DNA of 64,000 nucleotides from a virus (taxonomy: Duplodnaviria; Caudoviricetes). How positions within the stretch are numbered: position 1 is the stretch's first letter; every line of letters starts with the position of its first letter. Position numbers and translations under genes: made by a program. The notes under the pieces are model-generated. The model worked only from the letters and a program-made list of their open reading frames with translations, did not search any database and had not been told where the DNA came from. Below are positions 23,226 to 30,782 of the stretch, piece after piece. The stretch lies in the IMG/VR virus record IMGVR_UViG_3300003962_000013, positions 32,001 through 96,000 of that record. One strand, given 5' to 3'.

Positions 23226-23810
23226 TTATTTTAATTGATTTGATTTATTTCTATTTCCTATTTGATTAGAACCATATTGTTCTGCTATTTCTGTTGTTTT
23301 AAAACGAGGCATTAAATTAGTATAGTGAAAACACTTTTGTTGTTCTTCTAATTTAGTTAAATCAAATTTTGAACAAGGTTTAATATGATCTATTTCCCAT
23401 ATTTTTCCATAATTATTCCAATCCATTTTATTGATGAATTGTTGTTCTAAATATAATTTAAATTCAATTACTGAGCATCCTAATAATGTTATAATAGATT
23501 TTGATTTTGAATTGGAATTAATTGCTTTAAAAAATCTAGATCTTAGATTATCAGAAATTCTAAATTGGATATTATTTTTTCTTTTATTGGATTTATAAAT
23601 ATTACTATATATAGTTTTTCTTTTTCTATTTATAATATTATATTTTTTAAAATATAATTTTTGTTGTTCTTTAATACTATTTTTATATTGTTTAGTACAT
23701 AATTTACATCTAGGTTCTTTCCCATCTGGAGAGTTTTTGTTATTTGAAAAATAATTATTCTCTTGTGGGATTTTACATTTATTACAAATTTTTGTATATA
23801 AATATTGCAT
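23226..23810 (-). CDS. HNH homing endonuclease with N-terminal Zn finger
   Basis: CNKC...CKLC; LLGCS; WEIDHIKPC...CFHYTN. Confidence 0.8.
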   Translation of the reverse strand: MQYLYTKICNKCKIPQENNYFSNNKNSPDGKEPRCKLCTKQYKNSIKEQQKLYFKKYNIINRKRKTIYSNIYKSNKRKNNIQFRISDNLRSRFFKAINSNSKSKSIITLLGCSVIEFKLYLEQQFINKMDWNNYGKIWEIDHIKPCSKFDLTKLEEQQKCFHYTNLMPRFKTTEIAEQYGSNQIGNRNKSNQLK

Positions 23811-23841: not shown

Positions 23842-23870
23842 AAAAAAGCTACCCATGTTAATGAGTAGCT
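23842..23870 (-). terminator. Terminator after phoH
   Basis: AGCTACTCAT-TAAC-ATGGGTAGCT plus T tract on the minus strand. Confidence 0.65.
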
Positions 23871-23918: not shown

Positions 23919-24602
23919 TTAATCTCGAAATTCATCATATACTTTTAAAATGTCTTCAACTATTTCATGTCGATGATTTTTCTTTAAAGTAACAATTCTA
24001 ACACCTTTGATTCTTTCTTCTAAACGTGGAAAAAAACCAATACCTGATTCTTTTTTGCTTTTTAAATCTACTTGAGCTAAATCACCACAAAATACTATTT
24101 TACCGCCTTTACCTAAACGACCTAACATCATTTCAGTTTGTGGTCCTGTAATATTTTGACATTCATCTACTATAACAAAACAATTAGGAAATGTTCTACC
24201 TCTCATAAATGCAAATGGTACAATTTCAATCTGATTTTCTTGAACCATTTTATCTATTTTTTCTTTATCATATAATAAATATAAATTAGAATATATTGGA
24301 GCTAGCCAAGGGTCCATTTTTTCTTTTAAATCACCTGGGAGGAAACCAATTTCTTCTTTTGATACAGTTGGACGCGTAATAACAATTTTATCCATTTCTT
24401 TTTTGAAAACCATATCTAAAGCAATTTGACATGCCACCAATGTTTTTCCTGAGCCAGCCATCCCTTTAAGTAATGTAACAGGATTTTCCAATATAATTTG
24501 TTTGGCTTCTTTTTGTTCTTCGTTAAGTGATAACTTGAACTTTATTTCTCCTTTTGGTTTTCGTTTTTCTTTGAAAACATCTTCATTATTGTTTTGAGAC
24601 AT
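23919..24602 (-). CDS. phoH: PhoH-family ATPase
   Basis: GMAGSGKT; IGFLPGDLKEKMDPW; FMRGRTF; DECQN; GDLAQVDL. Confidence 0.92.
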   Translation of the reverse strand: MSQNNNEDVFKEKRKPKGEIKFKLSLNEEQKEAKQIILENPVTLLKGMAGSGKTLVACQIALDMVFKKEMDKIVITRPTVSKEEIGFLPGDLKEKMDPWLAPIYSNLYLLYDKEKIDKMVQENQIEIVPFAFMRGRTFPNCFVIVDECQNITGPQTEMMLGRLGKGGKIVFCGDLAQVDLKSKKESGIGFFPRLEERIKGVRIVTLKKNHRHEIVEDILKVYDEFRD

Positions 24603-24620
24603 AATTTTTGTTTATAAATA

Positions 24621-25340
24621 TTAATTAAATTTTACTTTAACCAAAGGATCGATTCCTGCTTCGATATGCCATGTATTTTGTTGACATAAAGTAAAATCAT
24701 ATCTTTCGTCAAACGGAAGTATTAATTCTGCTTGGCTACCCCATCTTACTAAAGCAAATCGTTGGTTTTGAGAAAATAATTCATTTTGACCTAAAACAAA
24801 AGGACATATTACATTTACATCTTCATCTGCTATTAAAGTAATATAATAAGTGTAATCAAGTAGTGATGAATAAACTTCAACTAACATTCTTTCATTATAC
24901 TTCAGATAATCCATATTATCAGGATTAATAGCTTGATTCAATAAATCTTTTTCAACTGCGAGCATTGGTCTGTTTGTTGACTCAATAGGTTCTAGTTGTT
25001 TATAACGTACTACTCCTCCATAAGGAATACGAATTATATGAGGGTCATAAAATGATAAAAATACACCCACAACAAGTGAAGGTTTATTATATGTTTTATC
25101 ACCTATAACATCTTGTAAAGTGTAATTTATACCTTTTATCTCAACTACTTTATCTGATGGATTATTTATATGTTTTTGATACATTATAGTTCCATCACAA
25201 GGTGAGTAGAAATGTTCGTTATCAATATAATTAGGCCTCTGCGGATCGCGGAAAAAAAACTGTGTGCTAAGTTTGGTGAGATTCATTTTTTTACATTTGG
25301 AAATGTCTTCTTTAATCCACTGTTCTAACGATTTACTCAT
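24621..25340 (-). CDS. Phosphatidylserine decarboxylase-fold pyruvoyl enzyme
   Basis: FFFRDPQRP, SPCDG, FLSFYDPH, and VRWGSQ matching the (R)FGS self-cleavage motif; no N-terminal membrane anchor. Confidence 0.75.
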   Translation of the reverse strand: MSKSLEQWIKEDISKCKKMNLTKLSTQFFFRDPQRPNYIDNEHFYSPCDGTIMYQKHINNPSDKVVEIKGINYTLQDVIGDKTYNKPSLVVGVFLSFYDPHIIRIPYGGVVRYKQLEPIESTNRPMLAVEKDLLNQAINPDNMDYLKYNERMLVEVYSSLLDYTYYITLIADEDVNVICPFVLGQNELFSQNQRFALVRWGSQAELILPFDERYDFTLCQQNTWHIEAGIDPLVKVKFN

Positions 25341-25978
25341 AATATTTTATTTGATTTATTTCTATTTCCTATTTTATCTTTATAACCAAAAGATTGAGCA
25401 ATTTTAGTAGTCTTAAATATAGGTCTAGTATTCTTATAATTAAAACATTCTTTTTGTTGTTCTATATCTTCTAAATCAAATCTACTACAAGGTTTAATAT
25501 GATCTATTTCCCAAACTATCCCATGATTTTCCCAAGTAAATTCAGGGAGAAATTGTTGTTCTAAATATAATTTATAAAATATTATTGTACAACCTATAAA
25601 TTCTAAAGTATTATTTTGTTTAGTAATATTATTAGTATGTAAAACTTCTCTAATTCTATTACTTATATTTAATCTTAATTTAACTTGTTTATTAGAATGA
25701 TATTGTTTTACTCTATATTTATTTATCTTTTTTCTACTAATTAAATTATATTCTTTTTGGTAATTGTATTTTTCATAGTGAATTTTGTGATAATCATGTC
25801 TTGCTTTTTTATTTTCAGAATGATAATTACTACTATACCCTCTTTTACATCCCTTACATTGATTTTCTAAACCATCTTTAGTTCTATTATGTTTATAAAA
25901 ATTATTTAGTGTTTTAAATTCATTACAAACTCTACAATTCTTTTTTAGCTCTATCTCTTTGTCGTTGTTTTTCATCAC
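25337..25978 (-). CDS. HNH homing endonuclease with N-terminal Zn finger
   Basis: CRVC...CKGC; WEIDHIKPC...CFNYKN. Confidence 0.8.
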   Translation of the reverse strand: MMKNNDKEIELKKNCRVCNEFKTLNNFYKHNRTKDGLENQCKGCKRGYSSNYHSENKKARHDYHKIHYEKYNYQKEYNLISRKKINKYRVKQYHSNKQVKLRLNISNRIREVLHTNNITKQNNTLEFIGCTIIFYKLYLEQQFLPEFTWENHGIVWEIDHIKPCSRFDLEDIEQQKECFNYKNTRPIFKTTKIAQSFGYKDKIGNRNKSNKIL

Positions 25979-26072
25979 ATTTTTCTTTGTTTTTCCAATA
26001 ATATTTCTTGGATGCCTTAGCTCTAGAAGCTTGCTTCTCTTCAGGAGTATTGTATTTTTTTAGGCGGCCCAT
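25932..26072 (-). CDS. Small basic protein (46 aa) overlapping the HNH gene start
   Basis: Manual translation MGRLKKYNTPEEKQASRAKASKKYYWKNKEKCDEKQRQRDRAKKEL*; late promoter motif at 26081-26088. Confidence 0.6.
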   Translation of the reverse strand: MGRLKKYNTPEEKQASRAKASKKYYWKNKEKCDEKQRQRDRAKKEL

Positions 26073-26125
26073 TTATCGGATATAAATATGTTAAAAAGAA
26101 TAAAGATCAAAAGAAAGATGACAAG

Positions 26126-27040
26126 TTATACAACTGATTTTTTATAATCTACATAATTCAAGTTTAAGATACAGCAACTGAGAAGTGCACCTGATTTCAT
26201 ATATTCACTTAAATTAAATATAATAGGTTCTAAACCTTCTTCTCCACATATCTTAGTTAAATTATCTATTTTAGTTTTTTCTAATTGGTAATCTTCTGAT
26301 TTTTTATCTAATTCAGAAATATTTGAAGCACATAAAATCATATTACCCAATCTAGCTGAATTAGTTATTCCACCAAATGCATCATCCTCACTTACGTCTA
26401 TAACCTTAGTATAGCATTTTAACTCACTTATCTCATCTGGAGTATATAAGGATGTACAAATCATAGTTTTCTCATTTGTTAACGGGAAAACTGAACAATC
26501 TAAATGGTATAAATAAGGTTCAACCATATGTAATCTAATAATTTTCATATCAAAATTTTGTTCCATCCAATCATAAGCTTCTAAGGTTGAACGTTGTCCA
26601 TAACCTCCAACATATATGTTATCTTTTAGATATTTAAGATCTGCAACACCTTCCCATTTAAATGGACAAATAAATGTTTCATACCCCATCATATCAAAAA
26701 ATTCCTTACCAATCCATTCTTCACCACGTCTTGGTTCTGAAGTATAATTAGATAATAACATTACATTACGATCTTTGATATGAGGTAAATGTAAACCTAA
26801 ATTAGCTACATATACTTGGTCTTGAAAATCACCTTTACTAGGTAATAAATAAACTAATCCTTGACCAGCCATAAAGCTATATAAATCCATGAATTGTTTA
26901 TAGGCTTTAGGTCTATTAATTTCTAATTCTTCAGGTTTAAGTTCTTCCATCCAAATATTATTTGGTTCTTTTGCGGATAAGGTGAATGGAAAATTCATTA
27001 CATAACTAGGTATGTTTAATTGTGATGGAGTTTCTTTCAT
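26126..27040 (-). CDS. Amidinotransferase / arginine dihydrolase-like pentein enzyme
   Basis: NNIWM, DQVYVAN, RRGEE, WEGVAD, GYGQRS, YHLD and EYMKSGALLSC follow the ArgZ/DDAH-family motif order, including the catalytic His and Cys. Confidence 0.8.
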   Translation of the reverse strand: MKETPSQLNIPSYVMNFPFTLSAKEPNNIWMEELKPEELEINRPKAYKQFMDLYSFMAGQGLVYLLPSKGDFQDQVYVANLGLHLPHIKDRNVMLLSNYTSEPRRGEEWIGKEFFDMMGYETFICPFKWEGVADLKYLKDNIYVGGYGQRSTLEAYDWMEQNFDMKIIRLHMVEPYLYHLDCSVFPLTNEKTMICTSLYTPDEISELKCYTKVIDVSEDDAFGGITNSARLGNMILCASNISELDKKSEDYQLEKTKIDNLTKICGEEGLEPIIFNLSEYMKSGALLSCCILNLNYVDYKKSVV

Positions 27041-27115: not shown

Positions 27116-27147
27116 AAGAAAAAGAAAAGCCGAGCTGAGCTCGGCCT
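27116..27147 (-). terminator. Terminator after the major capsid gene
   Basis: GCCGAGC-TCA-GCTCGGC plus TTTTCTTTTT on the minus strand. Confidence 0.8.
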
Positions 27148-27175
27148 TATCTTTTAACACTATTATGTTAATTTA

Positions 27176-28837
27176 TTATAGAGTTGTTAAACCACTAACA
27201 TAAATCTTACCATAGAATTCTGGTCTTAACATTTTCTTAGCGTAACGAGTCATTAAACCTTTACGTGGAGTGAAAGTTGATGGATCGTACACAAGTGGTG
27301 TCATGATCAATGGAATATATGGAGCGAAAACGGCACCTGATTCAAGGAATTGTTTACCTCTGAATCCCATCAATATTACGTTTTCAGTCATATAAGGGTT
27401 CTTATAAACTGTGTAACGGTTGTTGATAGCACCAACTTTTTGAACACCCATTGCAAATTCCATATTTGCAGCATCACCATTAGAGTTAGCAGCAAATCCT
27501 GGGATTGATTCTAAAACTGTTGCTACAGTTGGAGAACATACTAAGAAATTTGCACCACCTCTTAAAGTTAACTGGTGAATCTTGTTACTTACTTTTTGCA
27601 TTTTAGTACCAAGTGTTTGGAACCACTGACCTTGAGAGTTGTAGTAACCTAAACTTGCTGTGAAATCTGTACTACCTGCATTTAAAGTAGTGTTGTTAAC
27701 TACTGACCAATATTCAGTTGCTGCAGCAGCATCTTCAATTAACATATCTAAGATTTCCAAATCAATTTCCATTGAAATGTATTCACTCATGATGTTAGTT
27801 AATTCAGCTTCAGCATCAATGTTTTGGTAAGCATTTAAATCTTGAGCAAATTCAGGAGTCCATACTGCTTTTAATTTTTTAGTTTTAGCAGTGATAGCTT
27901 GAGATTGCATCTTGATATTGATTTCTGGAATTACAATTGTACTTGCACTTTGAGCATTCGGTACTGAGAATGAAGGAGCAGAAGTATCTTCGAAATCACC
28001 ACGGTTATTATCAACAGTAGCTTTATTGTAGTAAAGCGTACTTCCAGCAGAAGTACCAGAACCATTAGTTTCAGCTGTTGAAGCAGTGAAATAGAAAATA
28101 ATACTTGCAGCACCATCAAATGAAGTAAATGCTGGTAAAGATTTAGCTACTGTAGCAGCAGAACCAGAAGTTAATACGAATGCACGGATACCTTCGATAT
28201 CAAAGTTTGGAATACTACCTGTTGAAACTGTGAATGATTTAATTTCACCTCTAGCTGCAGAAGCTGATAAAGCTGAATCATACATTACACTAGCCCAAGA
28301 AGCTGTAGCTACTGTAGCACTAACTGTTGATGATGTTTGGTTTGTAGAATATGCGAAACGACCAGCTCCATAAAGACCACCTGTTGTATCAGTTGTTTGG
28401 AATGGGAAACGAGCGTTTGCGTTACGGTTACCATATAATGAGTTACCTGAAGAGAATGGGTTAACACTAGTTCCGTATTGGAAATCTAAGAAGAACACAA
28501 GACCTGAAGGTAAGTTCATTGGTTGAACTGAAACGAATTCTTTAGCTGCAATTTGACCAAATACTTTACGTACTAATGGTAATGCGATTCCAGCCCAGTT
28601 TTCAGATTGACCTACAGTAAATGTACCTGCAGATGTTCCAGCACCAGTTTGACTAGTTTCTACGACTAATTGTTTTGCTTGGTTTTCAAGAATAAGAGCC
28701 ATATTGTTACGCTCAACATCTGAACCAAATCCTTCCAAAAGACCTGTTTTAGACCATTTGGTAGCTAGTTTAGAAGCATCACTTTGAAGTGATTTCCATG
28801 GATTAGCTGATTCCAATAATGATTGAATTGAATTCAT
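27176..28837 (-). CDS. gp23: Major capsid protein (T4 gp23-like)
   Basis: LPLVRKVF, VQPMNLPSGLVFFL, KLKAVWTPEFAQDL, APYIPL, FTPRKGLMTRYA. Confidence 0.95.
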   Translation of the reverse strand: MNSIQSLLESANPWKSLQSDASKLATKWSKTGLLEGFGSDVERNNMALILENQAKQLVVETSQTGAGTSAGTFTVGQSENWAGIALPLVRKVFGQIAAKEFVSVQPMNLPSGLVFFLDFQYGTSVNPFSSGNSLYGNRNANARFPFQTTDTTGGLYGAGRFAYSTNQTSSTVSATVATASWASVMYDSALSASAARGEIKSFTVSTGSIPNFDIEGIRAFVLTSGSAATVAKSLPAFTSFDGAASIIFYFTASTAETNGSGTSAGSTLYYNKATVDNNRGDFEDTSAPSFSVPNAQSASTIVIPEINIKMQSQAITAKTKKLKAVWTPEFAQDLNAYQNIDAEAELTNIMSEYISMEIDLEILDMLIEDAAAATEYWSVVNNTTLNAGSTDFTASLGYYNSQGQWFQTLGTKMQKVSNKIHQLTLRGGANFLVCSPTVATVLESIPGFAANSNGDAANMEFAMGVQKVGAINNRYTVYKNPYMTENVILMGFRGKQFLESGAVFAPYIPLIMTPLVYDPSTFTPRKGLMTRYAKKMLRPEFYGKIYVSGLTTL

Positions 28838-30185: not shown

Positions 30186-30782
30186 TTAAAAAAACTTTTT
30201 TCCTTTTGATATATTATCCGAAGCCCACAATGGTTGTAAATTAGTATAATGACACAATTTAATTAATTCTTCTTTATTTTTGGCACTTGATAATGGAATT
30301 ATGTGATCAATATGCCATTTACCATAATTTTCCCAATTCATACCTTCAGTAAATAAATTTTCAATATGTTTAACCCCAAATTTAAAATTACATCCCAATA
30401 ATTTCTCTGTTTTACCTTCTTTTTTCCATTTTGTTCTTCTAAAAGCATGATTAATTCTTACTCTAAGATTTGTTGAAAAATTATACAATGGATCTATTAA
30501 TTTTTTGTTTTTTTGATAATTTTTAATATATTCTCGTTTTTGAGATTGTGTTTTAGGGATGAATTTAGGTTGGGTGTTTTTATAAATTAAATATTTTTCT
30601 TTGTAATAATTAGGATTTAACTTATACCAATTTTTATGGTATTCGGAATTAGATTTTACCCAAATATTATTATTACCATATAAACATTCTTTACACCAAT
30701 ATGTATAACCATCTTTACTTTTTTTATCTTTATTAAAGTATTTTATATCTTTTTCTATTTTACATTTACTACAAATTTTCAT
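30186..30782 (-). CDS. HNH homing endonuclease
   Basis: CSKC...CKEC; WHIDHIIPLS...CHYTNLQPLWASDN. Confidence 0.82.
   Translation of the reverse strand: MKICSKCKIEKDIKYFNKDKKSKDGYTYWCKECLYGNNNIWVKSNSEYHKNWYKLNPNYYKEKYLIYKNTQPKFIPKTQSQKREYIKNYQKNKKLIDPLYNFSTNLRVRINHAFRRTKWKKEGKTEKLLGCNFKFGVKHIENLFTEGMNWENYGKWHIDHIIPLSSAKNKEELIKLCHYTNLQPLWASDNISKGKKFF

What the first reader, a model, noticed from the sequence alone, without database searches (positions are those of the whole stretch)
24621..27040. Arginine dihydrolase-like enzyme plus soluble PSD-fold decarboxylase next to the capsid gene: candidate polyamine pathway
Seen: directly after the major capsid gene are a pentein enzyme (NxWM, DxVxxAN, RxGEE, EGxxD, GYGxRS, YHLD, ExxKxGxxxxC) and a pyruvoyl decarboxylase-like protein (FFRDPxR, SPxDG, RWGS) with no membrane anchor. 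Only an HNH insertion separates them. Known: ArgZ/AgrE-type dihydrolases convert arginine to ornithine; the PSD fold has been repurposed for a free amino acid (fungal PsiD); polyamines neutralise packaged phage DNA and putrescine modifies thymine in phiW-14. Inference: a two-step Arg to ornithine to putrescine route (or one via agmatine) using a non-canonical decarboxylase, for DNA packaging or for DNA/virion modification. The alternative is true phosphatidylserine decarboxylation unrelated to the neighbouring gene.
Basis: partly seen in the sequence, partly recalled or inferred. Interest (0 to 1): 0.75.

Follow-up and report, generated by a model that had tools for sequence, protein, structure and literature searches.

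The report
Phage arginine-to-putrescine enzyme pair
Behind its capsid gene this T4-like phage carries an arginine-dihydrolase-like enzyme and a soluble relative of the lipid enzyme phosphatidylserine decarboxylase; the two are gained and lost together in phages and sit beside an exporter in bacteria of many phyla, and they most likely turn arginine into the polyamine putrescine by a route I found in no paper.

Summary
On the minus strand lie the gp23-type capsid gene, a 304-aa pentein (26126-27040), an HNH-type nuclease gene (25337-25978), a 239-aa anchorless PSD-fold protein (24621-25340) and PhoH. The pentein keeps every ArgZ/AgrE landmark I could map. The PSD-like protein keeps the Asp-His-Ser self-cleavage set and folds as a PSD (pLDDT 93; Z 13).

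The two genes behave as a unit:
- They are adjacent in 78 of 80 IMG/VR loci.
- Among 59 close capsid relatives, 17 have both, 42 have neither and none has one.
- They co-occur in Campylobacter Fletchervirus and Bacteroides DAC phages.
- Their divergences correlate (r = 0.92).
- In about 70 bacterial genomes of many phyla they form an operon, PSD-like then pentein, usually followed by a MATE or ABC exporter.

This argues for a free, cationic small-molecule product. It argues against lipid decarboxylation and against DNA or virion modification.

The best reading is arginine to ornithine to putrescine (confidence about 0.5). No chemistry has been shown. The pair is an accessory cassette, not a core gene set. 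This scan found the same pair earlier on other DNA and read it the same way. I found no paper describing it.

The parts
27176..28837 (-). Major capsid protein gene (gp23 type). This is context: the upstream border of the cassette's insertion site.
   Evidence: Pfam Gp23 6.7e-76. In 42 of 59 close relatives this gene is followed directly by PhoH.
27126..27148 (-). Intrinsic-terminator-like hairpin with a T run, between the capsid gene and the pentein gene.
   Evidence: 10-bp stem, 6 G-C pairs; sequence read.
26126..27040 (-). Pentein (guanidino-group-modifying) enzyme, 304 aa, arginine-dihydrolase-like. Mapped residues, with AgrE numbering in brackets: D74 (D65), N80 (N71), R104 (R90), E130 (E118), R150 (R139), H179 (H168), D181 (D170), C289.
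   Evidence: (AgrE 6lrf 1.9e-15; ArgZ 6jv0 1.3e-12).
25979..26125 (-). Spacer holding the HNH gene's own upstream region, with an ATATTTAT motif at 26082-26089. Another note of this scan describes a promoter and leader cassette here.
25337..25978 (-). HNH-type homing endonuclease gene inserted at the junction, which is normally tight. Its TGA stop overlaps the ATG of the PSD-like gene (ATGA).
   Evidence: PHROG 1035, endonuclease VII, 4.2e-15; junction read. In 76 of the 78 IMG/VR loci holding both genes there is no insert at this junction.
24621..25340 (-). Soluble PSD-fold pyruvoyl-type decarboxylase, 239 aa. Predicted self-cleavage lies between G201 and S202, giving a beta chain of about 23.6 kDa and an alpha chain of about 4.5 kDa. 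D49 and H101 complete the processing set.
   Evidence: pLDDT 93.4; E. coli PSD Z 12.3-13.2; the aligned beta chain ends at model residue 200.
23919..24602 (-). PhoH-like ATPase gene, the constant downstream border of the cassette. An ATATTTAT motif at 24614-24621 lies just upstream of it.
   Evidence: Pfam PhoH 3.4e-62.
23847..23870 (-). Terminator-like hairpin after PhoH, which closes the pentein-HNH-PSD-PhoH unit.

Best explanation
The pair is an accessory two-enzyme metabolic cassette that makes a free diamine from arginine during late infection. In step 1 the pentein acts on free L-arginine as an ArgZ/AgrE-type dihydrolase and gives L-ornithine, two ammonia and CO2. In step 2 the PSD-fold protein cleaves itself at G201/S202 to create a pyruvoyl group and decarboxylates ornithine to putrescine. 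Shown here: the folds; conservation of the catalytic and self-cleavage residues; all-or-none inheritance; co-evolution of the two genes; and the operon with an exporter in bacteria. Inferred: the substrates, the order of the steps, the product, and the use of the product (charge neutralisation of packaged DNA, or general polyamine supply for replication and translation).
For: (1) Coupling in phages. The pentein lies directly upstream of the PSD-like gene in 78 of 80 IMG/VR loci. Among capsid relatives 17 have both genes, 0 have one and 42 have neither, with at least 7 gains or losses on the capsid tree. Both genes are present in about 39-40 Campylobacter Fletchervirus records, where they are not adjacent, and in 6 Bacteroides DAC/SJC phages, where they are adjacent. 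Pairwise identities of the two proteins correlate at r = 0.92.
(2) Coupling in bacteria. Of the 78 loci on cellular contigs, 73 also hold the pentein, nearly always directly downstream of the PSD-like gene. A MATE exporter follows in 38 loci and an MsbA-type ABC exporter in 5 others. A PotD/PotF-like binding protein (2e-53) lies nearby in Verrucomicrobiales.
(3) The pentein's closest solved relatives are the arginine dihydrolases AgrE and ArgZ. All mapped catalytic and carboxylate-binding residues are kept.
(4) The PSD-like protein has the PSD fold and the G-S cleavage site but no membrane segment. Four of five bacterial genomes with the cassette also have a separate canonical PSD.
(5) PSD-fold enzymes that decarboxylate free amino acids are solved: PsiD, and Ao-ADC1 with bound agmatine.
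(6) Five relatives that are at least 90% complete carry no N-carbamoylputrescine amidohydrolase, AdoMetDC or spermidine synthase, so the pathway must be complete in two steps or be finished by the host.
Against: No enzymology exists for either protein family. The pentein scores far below the NCBIfam arginine-dihydrolase cut-off (76 bits against 450), and a dimethylargininase model scores equally well. The meaning of Asn80 (ArgZ Asn71) rests on my memory of the ArgZ paper, which I could not read. The fold search does not tell ornithine from arginine or any other amino acid as the decarboxylase substrate. The only solved PSD-fold enzyme acting on a basic amino acid is an arginine decarboxylase. 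SpeA is also present in 2 of 5 cassette-bearing bacteria, so the cassette is not a simple replacement for the usual route. An exporter in the operon could equally mean a secreted special metabolite. One bacterial variant pairs the PSD-like gene with a tandem GNAT instead of the pentein.
Confidence: 0.5

Rival explanations
1. Agmatine route. The PSD-fold enzyme is an arginine decarboxylase, as Ao-ADC1 is. The pentein then hydrolyses agmatine to N-carbamoylputrescine, which the host's amidohydrolase finishes, or straight to putrescine.
For: Ao-ADC1 shows that a PSD-fold enzyme can decarboxylate arginine, and it gives the lowest rmsd to the model (2.8 A, Z 9.9). From memory, Campylobacter and Bacteroides hosts make putrescine through agmatine and own the downstream enzymes.
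Against: The pentein keeps R104 (100%) and R150 (98%), which align with the alpha-carboxylate-binding arginines of AgrE; agmatine has no carboxylate. There is no match to the agmatine deiminase family at E <= 0.01. A profile of the PSD-like family finds bacterial PSD (8e-12) but not Ao-ADC1, so any resemblance would be convergent. No N-carbamoylputrescine amidohydrolase is found in complete relatives.
Confidence: 0.15
2. Another small cationic product. Examples: citrulline decarboxylated to N-carbamoylputrescine (the pentein acting only as a deiminase), or an amidino transfer from arginine onto the amine made by the decarboxylase (arcaine- or homoagmatine-like guanidino amines). The product would be made for export in bacteria and for an unknown use in phages.
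For: The bacterial operons carry MATE or ABC exporters, as biosynthetic clusters for secreted cationic compounds do. The cassette is rare and patchy in cells (1 of 201 Campylobacteria genomes), like an accessory natural-product module. The pentein superfamily includes amidinotransferases, and Fletchervirus records annotate this gene as one.
Against: The closest characterised relatives are hydrolases (ArgZ/AgrE, DDAH). Asn80 replaces the Asp that, from memory, amidinotransferases and deiminases have at this position. No third biosynthetic enzyme is conserved next to the pair.
Confidence: 0.2
3. DNA or virion modification. The enzymes make or trim an amino-acid-derived group on phage DNA or on capsid protein, for example a phiW-14-like putrescinyl base.
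For: The genes lie in the late structural region beside the capsid gene. According to another note of this scan, the same genome carries a 7-deazaguanine operon.
Against: Bacteria carry the same pair with only an exporter, in housekeeping surroundings: beside primase in Sulfurimonas and beside glutamate dehydrogenase in Streptoalloteichus. Close relatives with the same capsid lack the pair. The carboxylate-binding arginines point to a free amino acid.
Confidence: 0.05
4. Genuine phosphatidylserine decarboxylation for host membrane lipid synthesis, unrelated to the neighbouring pentein.
For: The Pfam PSD family match is above its gathering score, and E. coli PSD is the best structural match. 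Database records name the gene this way.
Against: There is no hydrophobic segment and no counterpart of the N-terminal part of E. coli PSD. Scores lie far below every NCBIfam PSD cut-off (55 against 183 or more). The gene is strictly co-inherited with the pentein. A canonical PSD is present as well in 4 of 5 cassette-bearing bacteria. The family motif reads D-x-H-x-N-R-x-P where PSD has D-Y-H-R-x-H-x-P.
Confidence: 0.03

Closest known systems
ArgZ (Synechocystis Sll1336) and AgrE (Anabaena Alr4995) arginine dihydrolases, N-terminal pentein domain (PDB 6juy-6jv1, 6lrf-6lrh)
   Same: These are the best solved sequence relatives (1.9e-15 and 1.3e-12, about one third identical over 200 residues). 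The motifs DxVxxAN, RxGEE, EGxxD, GYGxRS and YHLD are shared, and so is the C-terminal Cys.
   Different: The phage and bacterial proteins are stand-alone, at about 300 aa, with no ornithine cyclodeaminase-like C-terminal domain. They score far below the family cut-off. They are partnered with a decarboxylase instead. Their activity is untested.
Bacterial phosphatidylserine decarboxylase (E. coli Psd, PDB 6l06, 7cnw)
   Same: Same Pfam family and fold (Z 12.3-13.2). Same Asp-His-Ser self-processing set. The G-S cleavage site lies at the matching position.
   Different: The phage protein has no membrane-binding N-terminal region. It has Arg in place of the second His of the DYHRxH motif. It is always paired with a pentein, and it is an extra paralogue beside the housekeeping PSD.
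Ao-ADC1, the PSD-family pyruvoyl arginine decarboxylase of Aspergillus oryzae (PDB 9JER, 9JF5, 9JFN), and PsiD, the tryptophan decarboxylase of Psilocybe (8x4q, 8zia)
   Same: Both are soluble PSD-fold enzymes that decarboxylate free amino acids. Structural similarity to the model is Z 9.9 (rmsd 2.8 A) and Z 10.4.
   Different: Both are fungal and much larger (Ao-ADC1 is 483 aa; PsiD about 440 aa), with extra N-terminal domains. Ao-ADC1 shows no detectable sequence similarity to the family profile (E > 10) and PsiD only marginal similarity (E 0.67). Any shared function would be an independent invention.
Virus-encoded polyamine enzymes surveyed by Li et al., PNAS 2023 (PMC9992855): PLP ODC, AdoMetDC-derived pyruvoyl ODC/ADC, arginase, and AIH/NCPAH of chloroviruses
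   Same: The proposed purpose is the same: raising putrescine or polyamine supply in infected cells. The use of a pyruvoyl decarboxylase is also shared.
   Different: The folds are unrelated. That survey reports no arginase in phages and no AIH or NCPAH outside chloroviruses. Its text does not contain the words dihydrolase, Campylobacter, Bacteroides or Flavobacterium.

Membership tests
Pentein / guanidino-group-modifying enzyme superfamily | Catalytic Cys-His-acid set on the pentein scaffold | tested here: met
   C289, H179 and E130 (with D181) align with the AgrE/ArgZ residues and with the family models. They are kept in 98-100% of 249 homologues.
ArgZ/AgrE-type arginine dihydrolase | Two arginines that bind the substrate's alpha-carboxylate (AgrE R90 and R139) | tested here: met
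   R104 (100%) and R150 (98%) align with them. Their role is taken from knowledge of DDAH and ArgZ structures.
ArgZ/AgrE-type arginine dihydrolase | Asn at the position of ArgZ/AgrE Asn71, where (from memory) DDAH, deiminases and amidinotransferases have Asp | tested here: met
   N80 aligns with AgrE N71 and is kept in 98% of homologues. The functional meaning is recalled, not read: the papers are not held.
ArgZ/AgrE-type arginine dihydrolase | Score above the curated NCBIfam cut-off (NF052232 or NF052231) | tested here: not met
   76 bits against 450, and 73 against 1025. A dimethylargininase model scores 78 against 300. This is a separate subfamily.
ArgZ/AgrE-type arginine dihydrolase | Makes ornithine plus two ammonia from arginine | not testable with these tools
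   Needs an enzyme assay.
Agmatine deiminase (AIH, PF04371) | Match to the family model | tested here: not met
   The pentein has no Pfam family at E <= 0.01.
PSD family (PF02666), pyruvoyl enzymes | Family model above the gathering score, and the PSD fold | tested here: met
   73 bits against 22. Model pLDDT 93.4, with E. coli PSD at Z 12.3-13.2.
PSD family (PF02666), pyruvoyl enzymes | Asp-His-Ser self-processing set with a Gly-Ser cleavage site | tested here: met
   D49, H101 and G201-S202 are kept in 97-99.7% of 340 homologues. The aligned beta chain of E. coli PSD ends at model residue 200. Cleavage itself is untested.
True phosphatidylserine decarboxylase (lipid enzyme) | Membrane-binding N-terminal helices or anchor | tested here: not met
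   The highest 19-residue hydropathy mean is 1.2. The alignment to E. coli PSD starts at its residue 39-40.
True phosphatidylserine decarboxylase (lipid enzyme) | Score above any NCBIfam PSD or archaetidylserine decarboxylase equivalog cut-off | tested here: not met
   The best score is 55.5 bits against a cut-off of 183.
Ao-ADC1-type PSD-fold arginine decarboxylase | Sequence relationship to Ao-ADC1 | tested here: not met
   A profile of 73 family members finds E. coli PSD (8e-12) and PsiD (0.67) but not Ao-ADC1 at E <= 10. Only the fold is shared (Z 9.9).

The most novel reading that the evidence does not exclude
The cassette does not make plain putrescine. Instead it makes a so far undescribed exported cationic metabolite from arginine, for example a carbamoyl- or guanidino-amine. 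Bacteria would secrete it through the linked MATE or ABC pump. Phages would produce it inside the cell for a purpose other than polyamine supply, such as condensing modified DNA or interfering with a host process.
Probability: 0.2. Interest if true: 0.8.

Novelty: new variant of a known kind. Interest (0 to 1): 0.65.

Why it matters
Polyamines are needed for phage DNA packaging and for translation, and viral polyamine genes are an active field. If the reading is right, three things follow:
- This would be a new two-step route from arginine to putrescine.
- It would add a new activity to the PSD fold, an enzyme that databases annotate wholesale as a lipid enzyme.
- It would be the first arginine-to-ornithine step known in phages.

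The cassette is common. The PSD-like protein has 515 homologous 90%-identity protein clusters and the pentein 1513. At least 209 IMG/VR loci and at least 130 bacterial species carry it. One pair of assays would therefore correct many annotations.

Natural phage pairs that differ only by the cassette, and cultured Fletchervirus and Bacteroides phages, make the question directly testable.

Tried and rejected
- A single-sequence AlphaFold run of the PSD-like protein failed (pLDDT 35). The run with 73 aligned sequences succeeded.
- The fold searches confirm the PSD fold but cannot name the substrate.
- The ArgZ and AgrE structure papers are not held, so residue roles rest on alignment plus memory.
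- Literature searches for the pair found nothing.
- No riboswitch or other Rfam element precedes the bacterial operons.
- I tested whether the cassette replaces the normal arginine decarboxylase in bacteria. SpeA is present in 2 of 5 cassette genomes, so the result is inconclusive.
- I looked for a link to bleomycin-type gene clusters, suggested by an old annotation note on phage NCTC12673. The Streptoalloteichus locus I examined lies among housekeeping genes, not NRPS genes.
- Long 'fusion' proteins in the representative library are inteins or neighbouring genes (Acb1, ADP-ribosyltransferase), not pathway partners.
- The Xanthomonas phage phiXF1 hit is a distant DDAH-like protein (24% identity) with no PSD partner, and is not this cassette.
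- The ESM Atlas only repeats the PSD family name.
- The window's own genome record is only 71% complete, so I drew no conclusion from genes missing in it.
Full report
WHAT IS THERE. The window belongs to a 114,784-bp IMG/VR virus record that is 28% G+C and 71% complete. It is a T4-like phage, with nearly all genes on the minus strand. The order downstream of the prohead protease and scaffold genes is as follows:
- major capsid protein, 27176-28837 (Pfam Gp23, 6.7e-76);
- a terminator-like hairpin, 27148-27126;
- a 304-aa pentein, 26126-27040;
- a 147-bp spacer;
- an HNH-type nuclease gene, 25337-25978;
- a 239-aa PSD-family protein, 24621-25340;
- PhoH, 23919-24602;
- a second terminator-like hairpin, 23870-23847.

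The HNH stop codon and the PSD-like start codon overlap as ATGA. The downstream gene therefore stays translationally coupled in spite of the insertion.

THE TWO PROTEINS. The pentein has no Pfam hit. It matches NCBIfam dimethylargininase and arginine dihydrolase at about 1e-21, far below their cut-offs, and PHROG 12759 at 1e-58.

Its closest solved relatives are the cyanobacterial arginine dihydrolases AgrE (6lrf, 1.9e-15) and ArgZ (6jv0, 1.3e-12). Counting along that alignment gives D74 = AgrE D65, N80 = N71, R104 = R90, E130 = E118, R150 = R139, H179 = H168 and D181 = D170. The nucleophile Cys is C289. These residues are kept in 98-100% of 249 unique homologues.

In DDAH and ArgZ the two arginines hold the alpha-carboxylate of the substrate. 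From memory, Asn71 is the ArgZ-specific replacement of an Asp that is otherwise conserved in the superfamily. I could not read the ArgZ and AgrE papers.

The PSD-like protein passes the Pfam PSD gathering score (73 bits against 22) but fails every NCBIfam PSD cut-off. With 73 aligned homologues AlphaFold gives pLDDT 93.4. The best structural matches are:
- E. coli PSD: Z 12.3-13.2;
- the tryptophan decarboxylase PsiD: Z 10.4;
- the Aspergillus arginine decarboxylase Ao-ADC1: Z 9.9, rmsd 2.8 A.

The beta chains of these enzymes end at model residue 200. This places the self-cleavage site at G201/S202. D49, H101 and G201-S202 are kept in 97-99.7% of 340 homologues. The protein has no hydrophobic segment, and the alignment to E. 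coli PSD starts only at its residue 39-40.

THE PAIR IS A UNIT IN PHAGES. An IMG/VR scan with a PSD-like alignment confirmed 209 loci. In 78 of the 80 loci kept, the pentein lies directly upstream, usually two bases away, in the order capsid, pentein, PSD-like, PhoH. In the other two loci the contig starts at the PSD-like gene.

I then anchored the sample on the capsid gene instead. Among 59 close relatives with enough downstream DNA, 17 carry both genes, none carries only one, and 42 carry neither and run straight from capsid to PhoH. On the capsid tree this pattern needs at least seven gains or losses, including sister phages that differ only by the cassette. The window's nearest capsid relatives lack it. 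The pair is therefore an accessory module inherited all-or-none, not a core gene set.

Among cultured phages, both genes occur in about 39-40 Campylobacter Fletchervirus genomes, where they lie tens of kilobases apart. They also occur in six Bacteroides DAC/SJC phages, where they are adjacent. Divergent metagenomic representatives on phage-like contigs keep the pairing too. Pairwise identities of the two proteins correlate at r = 0.92 over 128 loci.

THE PAIR IS ALSO A BACTERIAL OPERON. A scan of one genome per prokaryotic species found 130 genomes with full-length homologues, 41-49% identical. Two of the 80 loci kept are phage contigs binned into MAGs. Of the other 78 loci, 73 also hold the pentein homologue (35-56% identical). 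It nearly always lies directly downstream, so the gene order is the reverse of the phage order. In the five loci without it, at least one contig ends just after the PSD-like gene.

The carriers are Actinomycetota (Allokutzneria, Amycolatopsis, Streptoalloteichus, Saccharopolyspora, Saccharothrix, Streptomyces, Nocardia, Kutzneria), Verrucomicrobiales, Campylobacterota, Gammaproteobacteria, Acidobacteriota, Planctomycetota, Gemmatimonadales, Latescibacterota and Candidatus Glomeribacter.

Exporters are the only neighbours conserved beyond a single phylum. A MATE pump is present in 38 of 78 loci, often on the same strand and a few bases away. Five other loci carry an MsbA-type ABC exporter instead. 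Verrucomicrobiales add a PotD/PotF-like binding protein (2e-53) and a hybrid sensor kinase. Beyond that the surroundings are housekeeping genes, and no riboswitch precedes the operon.

The cassette is rare in cells: 1 of 201 sampled Campylobacteria genomes has it. On the PSD-like tree the bacterial copies form one well-supported, shallow clade that ignores phylum boundaries. The phage and metagenome copies are much more diverse around it. The root is unknown, so I do not claim a direction of transfer. Four of five cassette-bearing bacteria also hold a separate, higher-scoring canonical PSD.

WHAT IT MOST LIKELY DOES. An operon of two enzymes plus an efflux pump, in unrelated bacteria and in housekeeping surroundings, points to a free, probably cationic small molecule made in two steps from a common metabolite. 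That argues against lipid decarboxylation and against DNA or virion modification.

The conserved carboxylate-binding arginines say that the pentein works on an alpha-amino acid. It therefore acts before, not after, the decarboxylation. Its ArgZ-like signature favours full hydrolysis of arginine to ornithine. The pyruvoyl enzyme would then turn ornithine into putrescine.

Five relatives that are at least 90% complete carry no N-carbamoylputrescine amidohydrolase, AdoMetDC or spermidine synthase. This fits a route that is complete in two steps.

One inference rests on memory. Bacteroidota make arginine through succinylated intermediates, without free ornithine, and make putrescine through agmatine. 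An ornithine decarboxylase would then be useless in such hosts without its own ornithine supply, which would explain the strict pairing.

The position in a late, terminator-flanked unit beside the capsid gene fits a need at the time of DNA packaging, but this is inference only. I give this reading 0.5. The rivals are the agmatine route (0.15), another cationic product such as N-carbamoylputrescine or a guanidino amine (0.2), a DNA or virion modification (0.05) and true PSD activity (0.03).

COMPARISON WITH WHAT IS KNOWN. The pentein works like ArgZ/AgrE but is not a member by the curated score, and it lacks their second domain. The decarboxylase is a member of the PSD Pfam family but fails the tests for a lipid PSD. 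It resembles Ao-ADC1 and PsiD in being soluble. By sequence it shows no detectable relation to Ao-ADC1 and only a marginal one to PsiD (E 0.67).

The 2023 survey of viral polyamine enzymes reports neither fold. It states that no arginase was found in phages and no AIH or NCPAH outside chloroviruses. Seven literature searches found no description of the pair. The library lacks most subscription journals, so a published characterisation cannot be excluded.

EARLIER NOTES OF THIS SCAN. The same cassette was found on other DNA several times, and follow-up agents read it as an arginine-to-putrescine pair. I reached the same reading independently from my own searches. This report adds:
- the all-or-none count on capsid-anchored relatives;
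- the exporter as the conserved third gene in bacteria;
- the conservation statistics;
- the Ao-ADC1 precedent;
- the junction between the two genes as a recurrent target of homing nucleases.

One earlier statement says the bacterial pairs lie next to polyamine genes. In my sample this holds only for the PotD/PotF-like protein of Verrucomicrobiales.

VERDICT. The functional coupling is well supported. The chemistry is a reasoned prediction that two enzyme assays would settle. I class it as a new variant of a known kind, with interest 0.65.

Noticed in passing
window 25337-26125; L011:8934-9999; L033:1919-2668: The tight pentein/PSD-like junction has been hit at least three times by different homing-nuclease genes: the HNH-type gene here, a NUMOD1/NUMOD3 gene in L011 and a NUMOD-like gene in L033. 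In L011 the insert also carries a 128-aa fragment similar to the prohead protease (Peptidase_S77, 4.6e-6).
   Followed up: partly
proteins P0244 and P0384 (metagenome representatives): Some PSD-like genes are interrupted by an intein with a LAGLIDADG nuclease domain. In P0384 the insertion lies after about residue 100-130 of the host protein, near the catalytic His region.
   Followed up: no
proteins P0251 and P0246 (metagenome representatives): One PSD-like protein is fused to, or read through into, an anti-CBASS Acb1 domain (3e-34). A 1114-aa protein joins a PSD-like domain to a VapB-like region and an ADP-ribosyltransferase exoenzyme domain (8e-26). I did not check whether these are true fusions or gene-calling artefacts.
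   Followed up: no
window 23226-23810, 25337-25978, 30186-30782: Three paralogous HNH-type nuclease genes (194-213 aa, with similar Cys-rich N-termini and C-terminal H-N-H motifs) are scattered through the head gene block. Pfam recognises none of them.
   Followed up: no
L100:3452-6402: In one Actinomycetota MAG the PSD-like gene is followed by a tandem-GNAT acetyltransferase and an ABC membrane component instead of the pentein, next to an IS4 transposase. This may be a variant pathway that acetylates the amine product.
   Followed up: no
L093 and L102: Two bacterial loci hold the PSD-like gene without a pentein nearby: a Latescibacterota chromosome, and a Solirubrobacterales contig where a fatty-acid desaturase lies downstream. 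I did not check whether the pentein lies elsewhere in these genomes.
   Followed up: partly
window 24614-24621 and 26082-26089, and 47 sites window-wide: The octamer ATATTTAT is over-represented: 47 sites against 30.4 expected, and no shuffle reaches 47. It often lies just upstream of minus-strand genes, including PhoH and the HNH gene, as a phage promoter motif would. No exact copy precedes the pentein gene.
   Followed up: partly
(protein database): The pentein has about three times as many homologous 90%-identity clusters as the PSD-like protein (1513 against 515). This may reflect search sensitivity, or penteins that occur without the partner. I did not resolve it.
   Followed up: no
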